DNA of 38,374 nt from a virus. Location of the stretch: UHGV virus genome UHGV-0295649. One strand, 5' to 3'. The notes under the pieces are model-generated. The model was not told the origin of the DNA and searched no databases. It worked only from the letters and a program-made list of their open reading frames with translations. Within the stretch, counting starts at the first letter, position 1, and the number at the start of each line of letters is the position of its first letter. Position numbers and translations under genes: made by a program. Positions 14,109 to 18,213 of the stretch are shown here, in pieces.

Positions 14109-14717
14109 TTACTGTGATTGAGTGGCCGTAGTTGTCACAACTGAAGTTTTTTTAATCACATCAGCAGATAGATTCGTCATCCATTGATCTGTTAAGTCTT
14201 CTTCAAGTTCTGCAACAATTGCTTCATGATAAAATTTACCAAATTCATCTTGCATAACTTTTGTTTCTAGTTCTAACGCAGCTACTTCATCCGCACCATT
14301 TTCAATAGAGAATGTTAATCCTGTATTCGAAGTGCATGCTAACATACCAACTAACTTTCTATTTTCTTCGAAGTCATCCACGATCTCTGCAGCAAGTGAG
14401 AAATCTTCGCCTACGGAATCAGGACCGTAAGAGTAAATGCCTGGTTTAATACGTCCATCTTGTTTCAACCCATTGAAACGTCGATAAACTTCCATCGGTA
14501 CATGTGCAGTAATTGTTACCGTCATATTGATTGGTTTAGATTTTGATTTTACTTCTGTCGCTCCACATTTTTTAACCACCGTTTGCATTTCTGTTTCGCC
14601 ATCTAATTGTCCATTACAATTCGTTGCGATTGCATTTCCTGCGTTCTTAAAATTAAAAGCAATTCGTTTGATACTTACGTTATCGAACGTTGTTACTACA
14701 GTTTTTGTTTTAGCCAT
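14109..14717 (-). CDS. major tail protein
   Basis: 202 aa upstream of the chaperone pair. Thr-rich C-terminus TSVVTTTATQSQ. Confidence 0.7.
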   Translation of the reverse strand: MAKTKTVVTTFDNVSIKRIAFNFKNAGNAIATNCNGQLDGETEMQTVVKKCGATEVKSKSKPINMTVTITAHVPMEVYRRFNGLKQDGRIKPGIYSYGPDSVGEDFSLAAEIVDDFEENRKLVGMLACTSNTGLTFSIENGADEVAALELETKVMQDEFGKFYHEAIVAELEEDLTDQWMTNLSADVIKKTSVVTTTATQSQ

Positions 14718-15530: not shown

Positions 15531-15870
15531 CACCCACACTTTCAAGATAAAAATAGATATAAAAATTATCGTAATCGGCATAGATAACGTTGTAACGCAT
15601 ACTATCGATTACGATAAAATATTGATCTTTATTAAATTTCTTGGCGATTGGATGAAATGGAGTCTTTACTTTCTTAGTTAATTTCGATCCCATCGCATCC
15701 ATAGCTGTTATATCACTATCTCTCATGGAAAGATTTCTAAATTTTAAAGAAGTGATTTCTGTATCTTCTACACCAATCTTTTTTCCTAGTTCATTTCTTT
15801 TGGTAGTTTGCGTCAAAATCTTTAACCAACCATCGTTGAATGTTTCTTCGAGTCTACGATTATTCGCCAT
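15517..15870 (-). CDS. head closure / head-tail adaptor protein
   Basis: 117 aa, position-based. Confidence 0.45.
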   Translation of the reverse strand: MANNRRLEETFNDGWLKILTQTTKRNELGKKIGVEDTEITSLKFRNLSMRDSDITAMDAMGSKLTKKVKTPFHPIAKKFNKDQYFIVIDSMRYNVIYADYDNFYIYFYLESVGEYGD

Positions 15871-16171
15871 TCACATCACCTGCAATATATTCTTGTAGCG
15901 CATAATGTTGAATGAAACCTAATAACTCACTAGCGAAATTTTGTTCAAACTCATCTAAAGCACGATTCCAGTCGTATCTACATCTTTCGATTAGCAATCC
16001 GTATTCTAAGCTTTCAGGAGAAAAAGAAAGTGTTGTACTCACTTTACTTTGAAGATAAACAGCATTTTTAGCTATCATCTTTTTAATTGACTCATCTTCT
16101 TCGTTCCAGGTAACGTAAATATTATCCTTCACAGCTATTAGCAATTCTTCAGTCACTTGTTCAGGCGTCAT
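15860..16171 (-). CDS. head-tail connector (gp6-like)
   Basis: 103 aa, first gene after the capsid region. Confidence 0.5.
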   Translation of the reverse strand: MTPEQVTEELLIAVKDNIYVTWNEEDESIKKMIAKNAVYLQSKVSTTLSFSPESLEYGLLIERCRYDWNRALDEFEQNFASELLGFIQHYALQEYIAGDVNGE

Positions 16172-17052
16172 CTAACCACCGCCTTAATTGCTTTAACATA
16201 TGCGTAAGAGCATTTTTTCTTGTTTACAAATGATAAATCTTCATCAAAAGGCGTAGAAGTCACGTATCTCCCTTTGAAAAATAAATCTTCATCGTTTGTT
16301 GTTACTCCAGCATTGTGTAAGATTTTTACTTCTTTAACTTTTTCTATTGGATCAGTAGCAAAACAAAAGTCTAATTCCTCGTGAACTTTAGGACCAATAT
16401 TGAAATACATCATGTTCCAAAGCTGTGCCCACATCTCGGCTGTCCAGATTTGTATATTTGTTTTTTGCCCTCTAAGGTAGCGATATAGCCGATTAGAATC
16501 CAGATAAACCTTTTTCCAATAATTCGCTTTAGGACGGTTAATAACCCACTGTGCGCCTCCTGAATTAGTGTTTATAGTTTCCAAAGATTCTACTGTAACA
16601 TTTACAATGTTTGCCATATCTTTTAGAATATTTTCTCCGTTTTCACAGCTTCTAATATAATCAAGACTTAGATAACTACAGCAGTCGCTACAATACCAAA
16701 CATCATCTTTAGAAGGCAATTTGCGCAAATTAATTCTTTTATTGAAAATGACATCCGAATCGATATAGAAATATCGGTCGTCCTCACGCGAATGATCTTC
16801 TTCTAAATATTTCCACCATAAATATGGTTTAATCGAAGGAATATACTCTTTGTCGTCCCGCAGATCATCGTACACATGAACTTCAACACCATATTCCTTC
16901 TCAAAAAAAATAGGAATCTGATCATCGTGTCTGCTGAAAAGCAATACGATATCTTTGATTCCTAGTTTCTTCAGATTAGTTAAACAAACTTCAAGCTCCC
17001 ATTTAAACCGATTGATTGCCGGCTGACAAAGAATATACTTCATTCTGATCAC
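16168..17052 (-). CDS. Cys/Trp-rich protein with DXD-type motif (candidate GT-A glycosyltransferase) inserted between capsid and connector genes
   Basis: 294 aa. YFYIDSDVIF has a hydrophobic stretch followed by DSD. No structural-protein features. Start abuts the capsid gene stop. Confidence 0.35.
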   Translation of the reverse strand: MIRMKYILCQPAINRFKWELEVCLTNLKKLGIKDIVLLFSRHDDQIPIFFEKEYGVEVHVYDDLRDDKEYIPSIKPYLWWKYLEEDHSREDDRYFYIDSDVIFNKRINLRKLPSKDDVWYCSDCCSYLSLDYIRSCENGENILKDMANIVNVTVESLETINTNSGGAQWVINRPKANYWKKVYLDSNRLYRYLRGQKTNIQIWTAEMWAQLWNMMYFNIGPKVHEELDFCFATDPIEKVKEVKILHNAGVTTNDEDLFFKGRYVTSTPFDEDLSFVNKKKCSYAYVKAIKAVVR

Positions 17053-18213
17053 CTACGCTTGTGTTGTAGTTGTTGTGGTTGTTGGTTTTGTAGTTGTAGT
17101 AGTAGTTCCCAAAGCGCTAATATCTAATACAATGAAACTATCGTTACGTTTAGGTTGACCGTTTGCATATTGTTTAGCTAGATAAATGCGTTCGTCTTCA
17201 ACAAAATGGTATTCATCTGAAGCTTCAATTTTTAGTGTAGATCCTACACCCATGAAGTAATCTGAGGCTACCCCAATAACTGCTTTTCCTTCTGGCACAG
17301 CCGTTGACTGCAAATCTGAAACTGGTACTGGCAATACTTGTACGTATTCTCCATTAGCAGTTAGTACAGTCTTAGCTGGGAATACTTTAGACCAGTAATC
17401 AGTTGGATTCACAATTAGGACCACATCAGAAGGATTCACATTACGATAAATCGGATCATTCACACCTTCGATATTGAATTTTGATAGTCGCGCCATCAAA
17501 CCGCCCATAGTTACAGCATCTAAAGCTGTAATAGGTTCTGCTTTTTTTTCAGCATATTCTCCGCTAGTTTGTTTGCTCATGTCACGCATCATTCCGACTG
17601 GCATATCTTTACCAGTACCATCAACAATTGCTTGTTCTAATGCAATTCTCAATGATTCTACTAAAACAGTACGGACATAACGATCTAACCATACTGGACC
17701 TAAATCAAGCATTGCCTTACATACAGGAATATAACCTGATAGCTTGAACTGCTTCATGTTAATTACATCAAAGCCATTATCTAAAACTTTTTTAACAGCT
17801 TCGCAAAGTTTACCCCACCATGCTGGATTGACTCCACGTGACACAATCCATTCTGTTACACCAGTTGTGTTAACAAAAGTAATTTTTTGCAATAGTGGAT
17901 GAGATTGTTCTAAATCTTCAAATACACGTTCAAATACAGTAGCTGGCACTAATTCTTCGACCCCTGCAAAACCTTCGTTTTTCACTACTTCGTTATAGAA
18001 TTTTGTTTCTTGTGTAGTTAATACACGCTGACCACGGTTCATTAATACTAATTGATCTTGATTTTTTGCTGTTGCTTCTTCTAAAATTTTATCCTGAATT
18101 TCCTTAGATAAGCTTACCATAGCTGCGCTAAAAGATTCTTCGTTACCATCTTTAAAAGCTTTCATCAATTGGTCGCTTGCAGCTGTTACACCTTTTAAAT
18201 TTTTAACTGTCAT
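17053..18213 (-). CDS. major capsid protein (HK97 fold) with C-terminal poly-Thr tail
   Basis: 386 aa after the ClpP protease. Ends ...ALGTTTTTTKPTTTTTTTQA. Confidence 0.8.
   Translation of the reverse strand: MTVKNLKGVTAASDQLMKAFKDGNEESFSAAMVSLSKEIQDKILEEATAKNQDQLVLMNRGQRVLTTQETKFYNEVVKNEGFAGVEELVPATVFERVFEDLEQSHPLLQKITFVNTTGVTEWIVSRGVNPAWWGKLCEAVKKVLDNGFDVINMKQFKLSGYIPVCKAMLDLGPVWLDRYVRTVLVESLRIALEQAIVDGTGKDMPVGMMRDMSKQTSGEYAEKKAEPITALDAVTMGGLMARLSKFNIEGVNDPIYRNVNPSDVVLIVNPTDYWSKVFPAKTVLTANGEYVQVLPVPVSDLQSTAVPEGKAVIGVASDYFMGVGSTLKIEASDEYHFVEDERIYLAKQYANGQPKRNDSFIVLDISALGTTTTTTKPTTTTTTTQA

What the first reader, a model, noticed from the sequence alone, without database searches (positions are those of the whole stretch)
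16168..18213. Candidate virion O-glycosylation module: capsid protein with C-terminal poly-Thr tail followed by an inserted DXD-motif (glycosyltransferase-like) gene
The major capsid protein ends in TTTTTTKPTTTTTTTQA, a low-complexity tail not needed for an HK97 fold. The next gene, start abutting the capsid stop, is a 294-aa Cys/Trp-rich protein that breaks the conserved capsid-to-connector synteny. It carries YFYIDSDVIF, a hydrophobic stretch plus DXD as in GT-A glycosyltransferases. The major tail protein (14109-14717) also ends Thr-rich (TSVVTTTATQSQ). Enzymatic glycosylation of C-terminal extensions on capsid and tail-tube subunits is described for some mycobacteriophages. I am not aware of it in Firmicutes siphophages. 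This is inference from motifs only.
Basis: partly seen in the sequence, partly recalled or inferred. Interest (0 to 1): 0.8.

Follow-up and report, generated by a model that had tools for sequence, protein, structure and literature searches.

The report
Phage enzyme that likely sugar-coats virions
An unannotated gene wedged after the capsid gene of this Enterococcus prophage folds like a sugar-adding enzyme and, across hundreds of phages, appears only next to capsid or tail proteins ending in a string of threonines, which suggests many phages of Gram-positive bacteria coat their particles with sugars.

Summary
The window is an E. faecium prophage, 99.7% identical to phage 4995_1. Its HK97-type capsid protein ends GTTTTTTKPTTTTTTTQA. 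The next gene (phrog_4417, unknown function, no Pfam or NCBIfam hit) most likely starts at the ATG at 17043, giving 291 aa.

- In 45 of 48 non-redundant loci, the ORF directly upstream ends in poly-Thr. That ORF belongs to at least 4 unrelated capsid families and 3 tail-tube families.
- Within the window's own lineage, 6 of 6 relatives with the gene have poly-Thr tails on both capsid and tail tube. Five of 5 without it have neither (p=0.002).
- Longer family members fuse GT2, GT25, methyltransferase or radical-SAM domains.

The enzymes, acceptor motif and gene layout all differ from the mycobacteriophage Che8 system. I found no prior description.

Most likely this soluble enzyme O-glycosylates the Thr tails of capsid and tail-tube subunits. 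This is a new variant of virion glycosylation.

The parts
17053..18213 (-). Major capsid protein, HK97 type, 386 aa. Proposed glycosylation substrate.
   Evidence: Pfam Phage_capsid 1e-16, TIGR01554 1.4e-17, phrog_10 3e-64. Annotated as major capsid protein in the 99.7% identical phage 4995_1.
17056..17106 (-). Sequence coding the C-terminal tail TTTTTTKPTTTTTTTQA (residues 370-386). Proposed O-glycan acceptor.
   Evidence: It follows the last beta-strand (FIVLD, 360-364). Residues 372-386 have pLDDT below 50 and no secondary structure. It is absent from 81-84% identical capsids that lack the GT. Mixed ACT/ACA/ACC codons. Length varies among near-identical prophages: T5-T7 before KP, T7-T10 after.
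17049..17054 (-). Shine-Dalgarno AGGTGA for the GT gene, overlapping the capsid stop codon TAG (17053-17055).
   Evidence: Read directly. It lies 5 nt upstream of the ATG at 17043, which implies co-transcription and probably translational coupling.
16168..17043 (-). Putative virion-protein O-glycosyltransferase, 291 aa from the ATG (294 aa if the GTG at 17052 is used). GT-A fold, retaining GT8-like type. phrog_4417.
16753..16761 (-). DxD motif (D98-S-D100 in 294-aa numbering; D95/D97 in 291-aa numbering).
   Evidence: Invariant in 49 close homologs. Across 58 representatives at 35% mean column identity, the second Asp is invariant and the first is conserved in at least 90%.
16306..16317 (-). 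H246-N-A-G249 motif. H246 is the putative third metal ligand. The invariant K260 lies a little further downstream, outside these coordinates.
   Evidence: H, G and K are invariant across 58 diverse representatives. The role is inferred by analogy with the DxD plus His metal site of GT8 and GT6 enzymes (my own knowledge; geometry not checked).
15860..16171 (-). phrog_749 head-tail connector-like protein, 103 aa. Its start overlaps the GT stop by 4 nt.
   Evidence: phrog_749 at 1e-27. It has no Thr tail here, but its homologs carry poly-Thr tails in Bacillaceae prophages that have the GT.
14109..14717 (-). Major tail (tube) protein, 202 aa. Probable second substrate.
   Evidence: phrog_117 at 2e-18. 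In 6 of 6 relatives with the GT, the homolog ends in poly-Thr. In 5 of 5 without it, the homolog does not.
14112..14147 (-). Thr/Ser-rich C-terminal tail of the tail-tube protein, TSVVTTTATQSQ.
   Evidence: Second most Thr-rich C-terminus of the 61 ORFs in the window. It is a weakened version of the KKSSTTTTTTTQA seen in the 97% identical homolog in L136.

Best explanation
The gene at 16168-17043(-) encodes a soluble, cytoplasmic, metal-dependent (DxD) GT-A glycosyltransferase of the retaining, GT8-like structural type. It is expressed from the late structural operon and is translationally coupled to the capsid gene.

Using a host nucleotide-sugar, probably a UDP-hexose or UDP-HexNAc, it would attach sugars to the threonine hydroxyls of the disordered poly-Thr tail at the C-terminus of the major capsid protein. 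It probably also acts on the shorter Thr-rich tail of the tail-tube protein. The assembled virion would then carry a mucin-like glycan brush on head and tail.

What is shown:
- the fold;
- conservation of the catalytic motifs;
- the operon position;
- the tight co-occurrence and co-loss of the enzyme with Thr tails across unrelated substrate families.

What is inferred:
- that Thr is the acceptor;
- that the linkage is O-glycosidic with retained (alpha) configuration;
- that the donor comes from the host;
- that the tails lie on the virion exterior. This last point rests on general knowledge that C-terminal appendages of HK97-fold capsid proteins (T7 gp10B) and of tail-tube proteins (lambda gpV, SPP1 gp17.1*) are displayed outward.

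The biological role is not addressed by the data. Shielding from antibodies or proteases, adhesion, and colloidal stability are all possible.
For: Fold:
- AF2 pLDDT 96, pTM 0.92.
- All top-50 Foldseek PDB hits are GT-A glycosyltransferases of retaining families, with WbbM at 1e-8, then UGGT, ABO, a3GalT and glycogenin.

Catalytic motifs:
- DxD, HxxG and Lys are conserved across 58 representatives at 35% mean column identity.

Adjacency:
- 45 of 48 GT clusters (90% identity) have a poly-Thr-tailed ORF immediately upstream. Two exceptions have such an ORF elsewhere in the module, and the third ends in a weaker Thr-rich tail.
- The tailed proteins belong to capsid families phrog_10, 840, 247 and 3270, tail-tube families phrog_238, 88 and 6686, phrog_749, and a small decoration-like protein.

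Natural experiment in the window's own lineage:
- 6 of 6 loci with the GT have Thr tails on both capsid and tail tube. 0 of 5 without it have either. Fisher p=0.002.

Reverse enrichment:
- 5 of 120 arbitrary viral stretches holding a T7 tract carry the family. The background is about 522 of 2.9 million contigs.

Domain fusions in longer family members:
- GT2, Glyco_transf_7C, GT25, Methyltransf_24 and radical SAM.

Operon context:
- The SD overlaps the capsid stop and the GT stop overlaps the next gene's start. There is no excess of promoter-like or terminator-like sites.
- No TM segment.
- No other GT is annotated in the near-identical phage.
- The tail is predicted to be disordered.
- The family is also present in the large (85-92 kb) siphophages VPE25, 9183 and SA2.
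Against: - There is no biochemical evidence. No glycan has been shown on any virion encoding this family, and I found no paper on it.
- The link to glycosyltransferases is structural only. There is no Pfam, NCBIfam or PDB sequence hit. hhalign against the bona fide GT8 enzymes WaaO and WaaJ gives probability below 1%. Foldseek TM-scores to PDB are only about 0.5.
- The window's own tail-tube tail is degenerate (TSVVTTTATQSQ).
- Some distant family members (L156, L248, L251) have no poly-Thr ORF next to them.
- 12 of 14 T7-tailed ORFs in the arbitrary viral sample had no copy of this GT in the stretch held. Those stretches are mostly short, so this is inconclusive.
- Donor sugar, linkage and stoichiometry are unknown.
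Confidence: 0.75

Rival explanations
1. The enzyme is a real glycosyltransferase, but its target is a host surface polymer (wall teichoic acid, the enterococcal polysaccharide antigen, or lipoteichoic acid). It would act in lysogenic conversion or superinfection exclusion, like the prophage-encoded S. aureus TarP or the Gtr systems of enterobacterial phages.
For: The window is a prophage with integrase and repressor. Prophage-encoded GT-A enzymes that modify teichoic acids exist (my own knowledge). Several top structural hits (LgtC, WbbM) act on glycolipids or polysaccharides.
Against: - The gene sits inside the late structural operon between capsid and connector, coupled to the capsid gene. 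It has no promoter or terminator of its own.
- It has no TM segment or signal sequence.
- The family also occurs in the 85-92 kb siphophages VPE25, 9183 and SA2. The literature treats these as lytic (my own knowledge; not tested here).
- This model does not explain why the gene's presence covaries with Thr tails on two virion proteins.
Confidence: 0.07
2. The association is real but the chemistry differs. The protein has a GT-A-like, nucleotide-binding fold but transfers something other than a simple sugar to the Thr tails (for example a phospho-sugar or glycerol-phosphate). Alternatively it acts as a non-catalytic chaperone or assembly factor that binds the tails.
Confidence: 0.1
3. The co-occurrence is genetic hitch-hiking, not function. 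Poly-Thr tails are unmodified flexible spacers or slippage-prone low-complexity DNA, and the neighbouring gene has an unrelated role such as DNA glycosylation or an anti-defence activity.
For: The tail-coding DNA scores as a weak tandem repeat and varies in length between near-identical prophages. Poly-Thr-tailed phage ORFs exist in stretches where this gene was not seen.
Against: - Hitch-hiking cannot explain adjacency to at least 8 unrelated protein families.
- It cannot explain simultaneous presence or absence at two loci about 2.4 kb apart, capsid and tail tube, within one lineage.
- The Thr codons are mixed, so selection acts on the protein.
- No hydroxymethylase or other base-modification gene is annotated in the phage.
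- Longer family members carry additional glycosyltransferase domains and a methyltransferase domain.
Confidence: 0.05

Closest known systems
Mycobacteriophage virion glycosylation (Che8, Corndog, Myrna; Freeman et al. 2023, Cell Host Microbe 31:1216; cited in PMC11256854, PMC12582341 and PMC13313380; the primary paper is not held in the library)
   Same: Phage-encoded glycosyltransferases are proposed or shown to decorate the major capsid protein and, by my recollection of the primary paper, also the tail-tube subunits. This produces a glycan coat on the virion.
   Different: - The enzymes are unrelated. Che8 gp108 is GT2 plus a methyltransferase, gp109 is GT2 and gp110 is GT25. All are recognised by Pfam and have no BLAST similarity to the window protein. 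The window enzyme is a GT8-like retaining fold with no Pfam model.
- The Che8 GT genes lie about 50 kb from the capsid gene, at the right end of the genome. Here the gene directly follows its putative substrate's gene.
- Che8 capsid and tail proteins end ...NKTGS and ...YSDGS, with no poly-Thr tract.
- The host phylum is Actinobacteria, not Firmicutes.
GT8-type retaining GT-A glycosyltransferases (glycogenin, LgtC, S. pneumoniae GlyE, which acts on serine-rich repeat adhesins, and the UGGT catalytic domain)
   Different: No detectable sequence homology: no Pfam PF01501 hit at E<=1, and hhalign probability below 1% against WaaO and WaaJ. GlyE extends a glycan primed by GtfA/B. No priming enzyme is encoded here, so this enzyme would have to act directly on Thr.
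Chlorovirus PBCV-1 A64R and other giant-virus capsid glycosyltransferases
   Different: By my own knowledge, the PBCV-1 glycans are N-linked to Asn in a folded double-jelly-roll capsid protein and are built by several enzymes. Here the acceptor would be a disordered poly-Thr tail on an HK97-fold protein, with a single enzyme.
C-terminal decoration of both capsid and tail-tube subunits by other means (Listeria phage PSA +1 frameshift extensions; SPP1 gp17.1*; lambda gpV Ig domain; T7 gp10B)
   Same: The same two proteins receive a dispensable, outward-facing C-terminal appendage. In VPE25, 9183 and SA2 the Thr-rich extension also appears to be reached by frameshifting.
   Different: Those appendages are folded Ig or FN3 domains or plain peptide. 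They are not low-complexity Thr tracts paired with a dedicated modifying enzyme.

Membership tests
GT-A fold nucleotide-sugar glycosyltransferases | Single Rossmann-like alpha/beta/alpha domain superimposable on known GT-A enzymes | tested here: met
GT-A fold nucleotide-sugar glycosyltransferases | DxD (Asp-x-Asp) metal and nucleotide-sugar binding motif at the end of a hydrophobic beta-strand, conserved in the family | tested here: met
   YFYID98SD100VIF. Both Asp are invariant in 49 homologs. Across 58 representatives at 35% mean column identity, D100 is invariant and D98 is at least 90% conserved.
GT-A fold nucleotide-sugar glycosyltransferases | Demonstrated sugar transfer from a nucleotide-sugar donor | not testable with these tools
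   Needs an enzyme assay.
CAZy GT8 / Pfam Glyco_transf_8 (PF01501) | Significant sequence match to the family HMM or to bona fide members | tested here: not met
   No Pfam hit at E<=1. A profile of 49 sequences finds no GT in PDB sequences. hhalign against E. coli WaaO and WaaJ gives probability 0.9% and 0.8%.
CAZy GT8 / Pfam Glyco_transf_8 (PF01501) | Closest structural neighbours are GT8 enzymes, with DxD plus a C-terminal His-x-x-Gly...Lys signature | tested here: inconclusive
Mycobacteriophage-type virion glycosylation system (Freeman 2023) | Homologous glycosyltransferases (Che8 gp108-110 types: GT2, GT25, methyltransferase) | tested here: not met
   BLASTP gives no significant alignment. 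The Che8 enzymes hit PF00535, PF01755 and PF13578, and the window enzyme hits none of them. Longer relatives of the window enzyme do carry fused GT2, GT25 or Methyltransf_24 domains.
Mycobacteriophage-type virion glycosylation system (Freeman 2023) | Glycans shown on the capsid and tail-tube subunits of purified virions | not testable with these tools
   Needs glycostain or mass spectrometry. Only indirect support exists here: Thr tails on exactly these two proteins covary with the enzyme.
Lysogenic-conversion cell-envelope glycosyltransferases (TarP / Gtr type) | Own promoter or moron-like placement near the lysogeny or lysis modules, often with membrane association | tested here: not met
   The gene is embedded in the late operon. 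The SD overlaps the capsid stop and the gene's stop overlaps the next start. No promoter or terminator excess. No TM segment. The family is also present in the large siphophages VPE25, 9183 and SA2.
Phage DNA glycosyltransferases (T4 alpha/beta-GT and 5hmC-glycosylating systems) | Co-occurrence with base-hydroxymethylating or replication genes; GT-B fold or dedicated DNA-GT families | tested here: not met
   No such gene is annotated in the near-identical phage. The fold is GT-A. The gene neighbours are structural in all loci examined.

The most novel reading that the evidence does not exclude
phrog_4417 defines a large glycosyltransferase family that I found described nowhere: 868 clusters at 50% identity, no Pfam or NCBIfam model, and every database name 'hypothetical'. 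It is dedicated to O-glycosylating poly-threonine tails on virion surface proteins.

The proposed targets are capsid, tail tube, connector-like and decoration-like proteins. The phages infect Enterococcus, Lactobacillaceae, Lactococcus, Staphylococcus, Listeria, Clostridium and many Bacillaceae. If so, many gut, dairy and clinical phages carry a mucin-like glycan brush.

In some lineages (VPE25, 9183, SA2) the fraction of tailed subunits, and hence of glycosylated ones, would be set by programmed ribosomal frameshifting into the Thr-coding frame.
Probability: 0.65. Interest if true: 0.85.

Novelty: new variant of a known kind. Interest (0 to 1): 0.78.

Why it matters
Virion glycosylation by phage-encoded enzymes has so far been shown experimentally only for some actinobacteriophages. 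There it altered antibody production and recognition (Freeman 2023, as summarised in PMC11256854).

If the present inference is right, an unrelated enzyme family does the same in a large set of Firmicutes phages. These include therapy-relevant Enterococcus and Staphylococcus phages (VPE25, 9183, SA2) and phages of dairy and probiotic species. Several consequences would follow.

- It would bear on phage immunogenicity and clearance, stability in the gut and possibly mucus interaction. It would also affect proteomic identification of capsid C-termini, interpretation of cryo-EM density, and the use of these C-termini for display.
- It would give 868 orphan protein clusters and one PHROG a function.
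- It would offer a minimal one-enzyme, one-peptide-tag system for cytoplasmic O-glycosylation in bacteria.
- The acceptor rule, a C-terminal poly-Thr tail next to the enzyme's gene, is simple enough to be used directly for annotation.

Tried and rejected
- Sequence-based annotation of the 294-aa protein gave nothing informative. Pfam at E<=1 gave none and NCBIfam gave none. PDB phmmer gave only noise, and so did a PDB search with a 49-sequence profile.
- hhalign of the family profile against the bona fide GT8 enzymes WaaO and WaaJ gave probability below 1%. GT8 membership by sequence is therefore rejected. The only local alignment with WaaO does put the family's DSD on WaaO's DAD.
- BLASTP against Che8 gp108, gp109 and gp110 showed no similarity. 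Homology with the mycobacteriophage system is rejected.
- The first viral-contig scan returned mostly near-identical E. faecium prophages. Diversity came from genome contigs.
- The reverse test with a T7 DNA pattern was only partly informative. The stretches returned are arbitrary and often short. The 5 of 120 enrichment is meaningful, but the 12 of 14 tailed ORFs without the GT is not.
- The promoter and terminator scan found nothing above shuffled expectation, so the moron model was dropped.
- Eight literature searches found no description of this family or of glycosylated Firmicutes phage virions. The primary Freeman 2023 paper is not held. One study that glycostained ten phages, including B. 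cereus PBC2, was negative. No Bacillus phage record carries this family, so that result is not a counter-example.
- I considered the tail to be a DNA microsatellite artefact. I rejected this because the codons are mixed and selection is on Thr.
Full report
**1. What is in the window**

The window is a complete temperate siphophage genome in an Enterococcus faecium background. It is 99.7% identical, over the gene of interest, to Enterococcus phage 4995_1 (OP745419).

On the minus strand the late operon runs TerS, TerL, portal, ClpP-type prohead protease, major capsid protein (17053..18213), the gene in question (16168..17052 as the longest ORF), a phrog_749 connector-like protein, head closure, and so on. 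It continues to the major tail protein (14109..14717) and the tape measure.

The capsid protein is an HK97-type protein (Pfam Phage_capsid 1e-16, TIGR01554, phrog_10) and ends ...FIVLDISALG-TTTTTTKPTTTTTTTQA. The tail-tube protein (phrog_117) ends ...KKTSVVTTTATQSQ.

Among 61 non-overlapping ORFs in the window, these two have the most Thr-rich C-termini. The capsid tail holds the only runs of 4 or more Thr in the whole window.

One detail needs correcting. The sequence TAGGTGATCAGAATG shows an AGGTGA Shine-Dalgarno overlapping the capsid stop codon, 5 nt before an ATG at 17043. The protein is therefore most likely 291 aa, as PGAP annotates it and where the family alignment starts. Its stop overlaps the start of the next gene.

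Promoter-like and terminator-like sites are not enriched around it. The gene is thus an integral, probably translationally coupled, part of the late operon and not a moron.

**2. What the protein is**

Sequence methods are silent. There is no Pfam hit at E<=1, no NCBIfam hit and no PDB sequence hit, even with a 49-sequence profile. The only match is phrog_4417, 'unknown function' (E 2e-156). All names given by public sources are 'hypothetical protein' or 'prophage pi2 protein 34'.

Structure prediction from a 49-sequence alignment gave a very confident model (pLDDT 96, pTM 0.92).

- Foldseek against the PDB returned 235 chains at E<=1e-3. The top 50 are all GT-A glycosyltransferases of retaining families: WbbM, the UGGT catalytic domain (GT24), the ABO and alpha-1,3-GalT enzymes (GT6), and glycogenin (GT8).
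- In the viral structure library the family's own members are unannotated: an uncultured Caudovirales protein at TM 0.92 and Lactobacillus phage LP65 Orf49 at TM 0.78. The next tier is GT8-type enzymes of giant viruses and phages.

A profile search of 1.84 billion representative proteins found 868 clusters at E<=1e-3, of which 508 reach E<=1e-30. In an alignment of 58 of these (mean column identity 35%), D100, H246, G249 and K260 are invariant and D98 is at least 90% conserved (294-aa numbering). This is the kind of DxD plus downstream His signature used by GT8 and GT6 enzymes to hold Mn2+ and the UDP-sugar. The analogy is from my own knowledge and I could not check the geometry.

The protein has no hydrophobic segment (maximum 19-residue Kyte-Doolittle mean 1.1), so it is soluble and cytoplasmic.

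Many family members are 480-780 aa long, with this domain at the N-terminus. Pfam scans of ten members found a second domain in five: a GT2 domain, a Glyco_transf_7C domain, a GT25 domain, a Methyltransf_24 domain, or radical-SAM plus SPASM domains. Fusion to further glycan-building and glycan-tailoring domains is independent evidence that the family works in glycan assembly.

By sequence, however, it is not a member of GT8. hhalign of the family profile against E. coli WaaO and WaaJ gave probabilities below 1%. I therefore file it as a GT-A enzyme with a GT8-like retaining architecture, belonging to a family of its own.

**3. What it acts on: comparative evidence**

I collected 131 loci encoding relatives, from viral contigs and from one genome per species. 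Of these, 128 carry a full-length copy, and they collapse to 48 clusters at 90% identity.

In 45 of the 48, the longest ORF ending next to the start of the gene has at least 5 Thr in a 6-residue window within its last 40 residues.

- Two of the three exceptions have a poly-Thr-tailed tail-tube-sized ORF about 2.4 kb downstream.
- The third ends ...APQTTPATTAG.

The 50 'background' ORFs with such tails, out of 500, are not background at all. They are capsid-sized, connector-sized and tail-tube-sized ORFs of the same modules. A typical carrier phage therefore has two or three Thr-tailed virion proteins.

The tailed neighbours are not homologous to one another (for the window's own proteins):

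- capsid proteins of phrog_10, phrog_840, phrog_247 and a protease-capsid fusion (phrog_3270);
- tail-tube proteins of phrog_238, phrog_88 and phrog_6686, plus phrog_117 in the window;
- phrog_749 connector-like proteins;
- a small decoration-like protein of 113-140 aa carrying three consecutive PTTTTTTT repeats.

The only thing these proteins share is a C-terminal poly-Thr tract and their place in the virion. In some phages the enzyme gene follows the capsid gene, as here. In others it follows the tail-tube gene (phiFL1A, phiCTP1, SA2, many Bacillaceae prophages).

**4. A natural experiment in the window's own lineage**

Homologs of the capsid core fall into two groups that share the ending ...FIVLDISxLG. 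Some continue with a poly-Thr tail. Others stop within 4-13 residues (...LGPVSK...LVPASK...LGAAQEPETPPTP).

I fetched the contigs of eleven of them and checked them by tblastn.

- All six with a tailed capsid (81-89% identical to the window's) have a homolog of the gene (74-99.7% identical) directly after the capsid gene. All six also have a poly-Thr tail on the tail-tube protein, for example ...KKSSTTTTTTTQA and ...GTTTTSSTTTSTTTTTTASGK.
- All five with a tail-less capsid (63-84% identical) lack the gene anywhere in the locus. Their tail-tube proteins, 59-81% identical to the window's, end without Thr tracts (...AVKP, ...ASTSNP, ...VTPSN, ...TSKKA, ...TMKNTNA).

Synteny is otherwise the same. 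Fisher's exact test gives p=0.002.

Three features at two separate places in the operon are thus gained and lost together. This is hard to explain by linkage alone. It also shows that the tail is dispensable for the HK97 fold. AlphaFold agrees: residues 372-386 have pLDDT below 50 and no secondary structure, after the last strand at 360-364.

**5. Reverse direction**

I scanned viral contigs for seven consecutive Thr codons and obtained an arbitrary sample of 120 stretches. Five of them contain a member of the family. In the whole collection of 2.9 million contigs, about 522 were detected. Even allowing a large undercount of the base rate, this is a strong enrichment.

The converse figure is not interpretable. 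Twelve of 14 T7-tailed ORFs had no copy in the stretch held, but most of those stretches are short. Other enzymes may serve other tails.

**6. Mechanism proposed**

The enzyme is made late, together with its substrates. It binds a host UDP-sugar through the DxD-Mn2+ site. It then transfers the sugar, with retention of anomeric configuration, to Thr hydroxyls of the disordered C-terminal tails of capsid and tail-tube subunits.

No other glycosyltransferase and no sugar-nucleotide synthesis gene is annotated in the near-identical phage. The simplest expectation here is therefore single sugars, or a short homo-oligomer, on up to 13 Thr per capsid subunit. Relatives with fused GT2, GT25 or methyltransferase domains would build longer or methylated glycans.

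C-terminal appendages of HK97-fold capsid proteins (T7 gp10B) and of siphophage tube proteins (lambda gpV, SPP1 gp17.1*) face outward (my own knowledge). The result would be a mucin-like glycan brush on head and tail.

Fold, motifs, operon position and covariation are shown. Acceptor identity, linkage, donor and exposure are inferred. The benefit to the phage is open.

**7. Rivals**

- A cell-envelope-modifying, lysogenic-conversion enzyme is unlikely. There is no membrane anchor and no promoter of the gene's own, it sits in the late operon, and it is present in the large siphophages VPE25, 9183 and SA2.
- DNA glycosylation is unlikely. There are no base-modifying genes, the fold is GT-A and the neighbours are structural.
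- Hitch-hiking without function is contradicted by sections 3 and 4.
- A different transfer chemistry on the same tails cannot be excluded, because the assignment is structural only.

**8. Comparison with what is known**

Virion glycosylation by phage-encoded enzymes is established for mycobacteriophages such as Che8. The source is Freeman et al. 2023, known to me through citing papers PMC11256854, PMC12582341 and PMC13313380. The primary paper is not in the library.

I fetched Che8 for comparison.

- Its three glycosyltransferases are GT2 plus methyltransferase, GT2, and GT25.
- They lie at the right end of the genome, about 50 kb from the capsid gene.
- They have no similarity to the window's enzyme.
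- Its capsid and tail-tube proteins end ...NKTGS and ...YSDGS, without Thr tracts.

The present system is therefore analogous in outcome but different in enzyme family, acceptor motif, gene arrangement and host phylum. Eight literature searches found no description of phrog_4417 or of glycosylated virions in Firmicutes phages. Subscription journals are not covered by that library.

A glycostain survey of ten phages was negative (PMC12894461). None of the phage records carrying this family is a Bacillus phage, so that survey is not a counter-example.

**9. Verdict**

Direct chemistry is missing.

I rate it a new variant of a known kind, virion glycosylation. It has a previously unannotated, widespread enzyme family and a simple acceptor rule, and it can be tested immediately in culturable phages.

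Noticed in passing
L268:6700-6890 (Enterococcus phage VPE25, LT615366) and L272:3255-3420 (phage 9183, MT939241): In these 86-kb phages the annotated capsid protein ends without a tail (...VVATAK*, ...VVAAPKG*). The −1 frame immediately continues with a 30-40 residue poly-Thr stretch (VTPQPTTTTTTTVKPTTTTT... and RVEPTTTTSTTKATTTTT...). The junctions carry slippery sites: A_AAG directly before the stop in VPE25, and a canonical C_CCA_AAA heptamer in 9183. This looks like a programmed −1 frameshift producing a minor Thr-tailed capsid isoform, as with T7 gp10A/10B. The GT gene follows.
   Followed up: partly
L270:3673-3936 (Staphylococcus phage SA2, MH356730): The major tail protein ends ...DDSTTTTTTTTP*. 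An overlapping ORF annotated as a separate hypothetical protein continues in the +1 frame with about 80 further Thr/Ser-rich residues. This may be a frameshift-extended long tail-tube isoform, as in SPP1 gp17.1* or Listeria PSA. The GT gene is next. The SA2 capsid has no tail.
   Followed up: partly
L047:5585-6001, L085:5660-6001 and similar (L048, L049, L084, L086, L087): In several Bacillaceae prophages a small protein of 113-140 aa lies between the capsid gene and the GT gene. It has a short N-terminal domain and then three or more consecutive PTTTTTTT(E/A/K) repeats with an acidic end. To my eye the N-terminal domain looks FN3-like in L085, but I did not test that. It looks like a dedicated glycan-carrier decoration protein. 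PHROGs labels relatives as 'major tail protein', which seems doubtful given its position.
   Followed up: partly
P0276-P0390, e.g. P0298, P0292, P0362: Many family members are 480-780 aa. Of the ten I scanned, one (P0298) carries radical-SAM plus SPASM domains after the GT domain. Five (P0276, P0326, P0330, P0349, P0242) have large extra regions with no Pfam match at all. Their contexts were not examined.
   Followed up: no
L129 (Candidatus Saccharimonadales MAG) and phage records from Chryseobacterium and Arcanobacterium: The family is not confined to Firmicutes hosts. A 42% identical copy sits after a 283-aa protein ending ...ETAASTTTTT in a Saccharimonadales (CPR) contig. The Arcanobacterium record resembles the Staphylococcus 90-kb phages, so its host label may be wrong.
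   Followed up: no
L040, L041, L132: In a few loci the GT gene is split into two or three ORFs by frameshifts, while the upstream poly-Thr tail is intact. These are either recent pseudogenes or assembly errors.
   Followed up: no
window 17056-17106 compared with L002-L088: The capsid tail varies in length and composition among otherwise near-identical E. faecium prophages. Variants include T5, T6 or T7 before KP, T7 or T10 after it, occasional I or A substitutions, and QA, KKA, KKV or RA endings. The coding DNA scores as a weak 6/9-nt tandem repeat, which suggests slippage-driven variation in the number of acceptor sites.
   Followed up: partly
L141:5634-6131 (Dellaglioa algida prophage): In a relative without the GT, the slot after the capsid gene is occupied by a 165-aa protein with Big_2 Ig-like domains. 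A further Big_2 ORF follows the tail-tube gene. Ig-domain decoration and Thr-tail-plus-GT decoration may therefore be alternative solutions at the same two positions.
   Followed up: no
L272:3501-4370 (phage 9183 ORF095) and vB_EfaS_140: Existing annotations of family members are misleading. Neither is supported by the fold.
   Followed up: no
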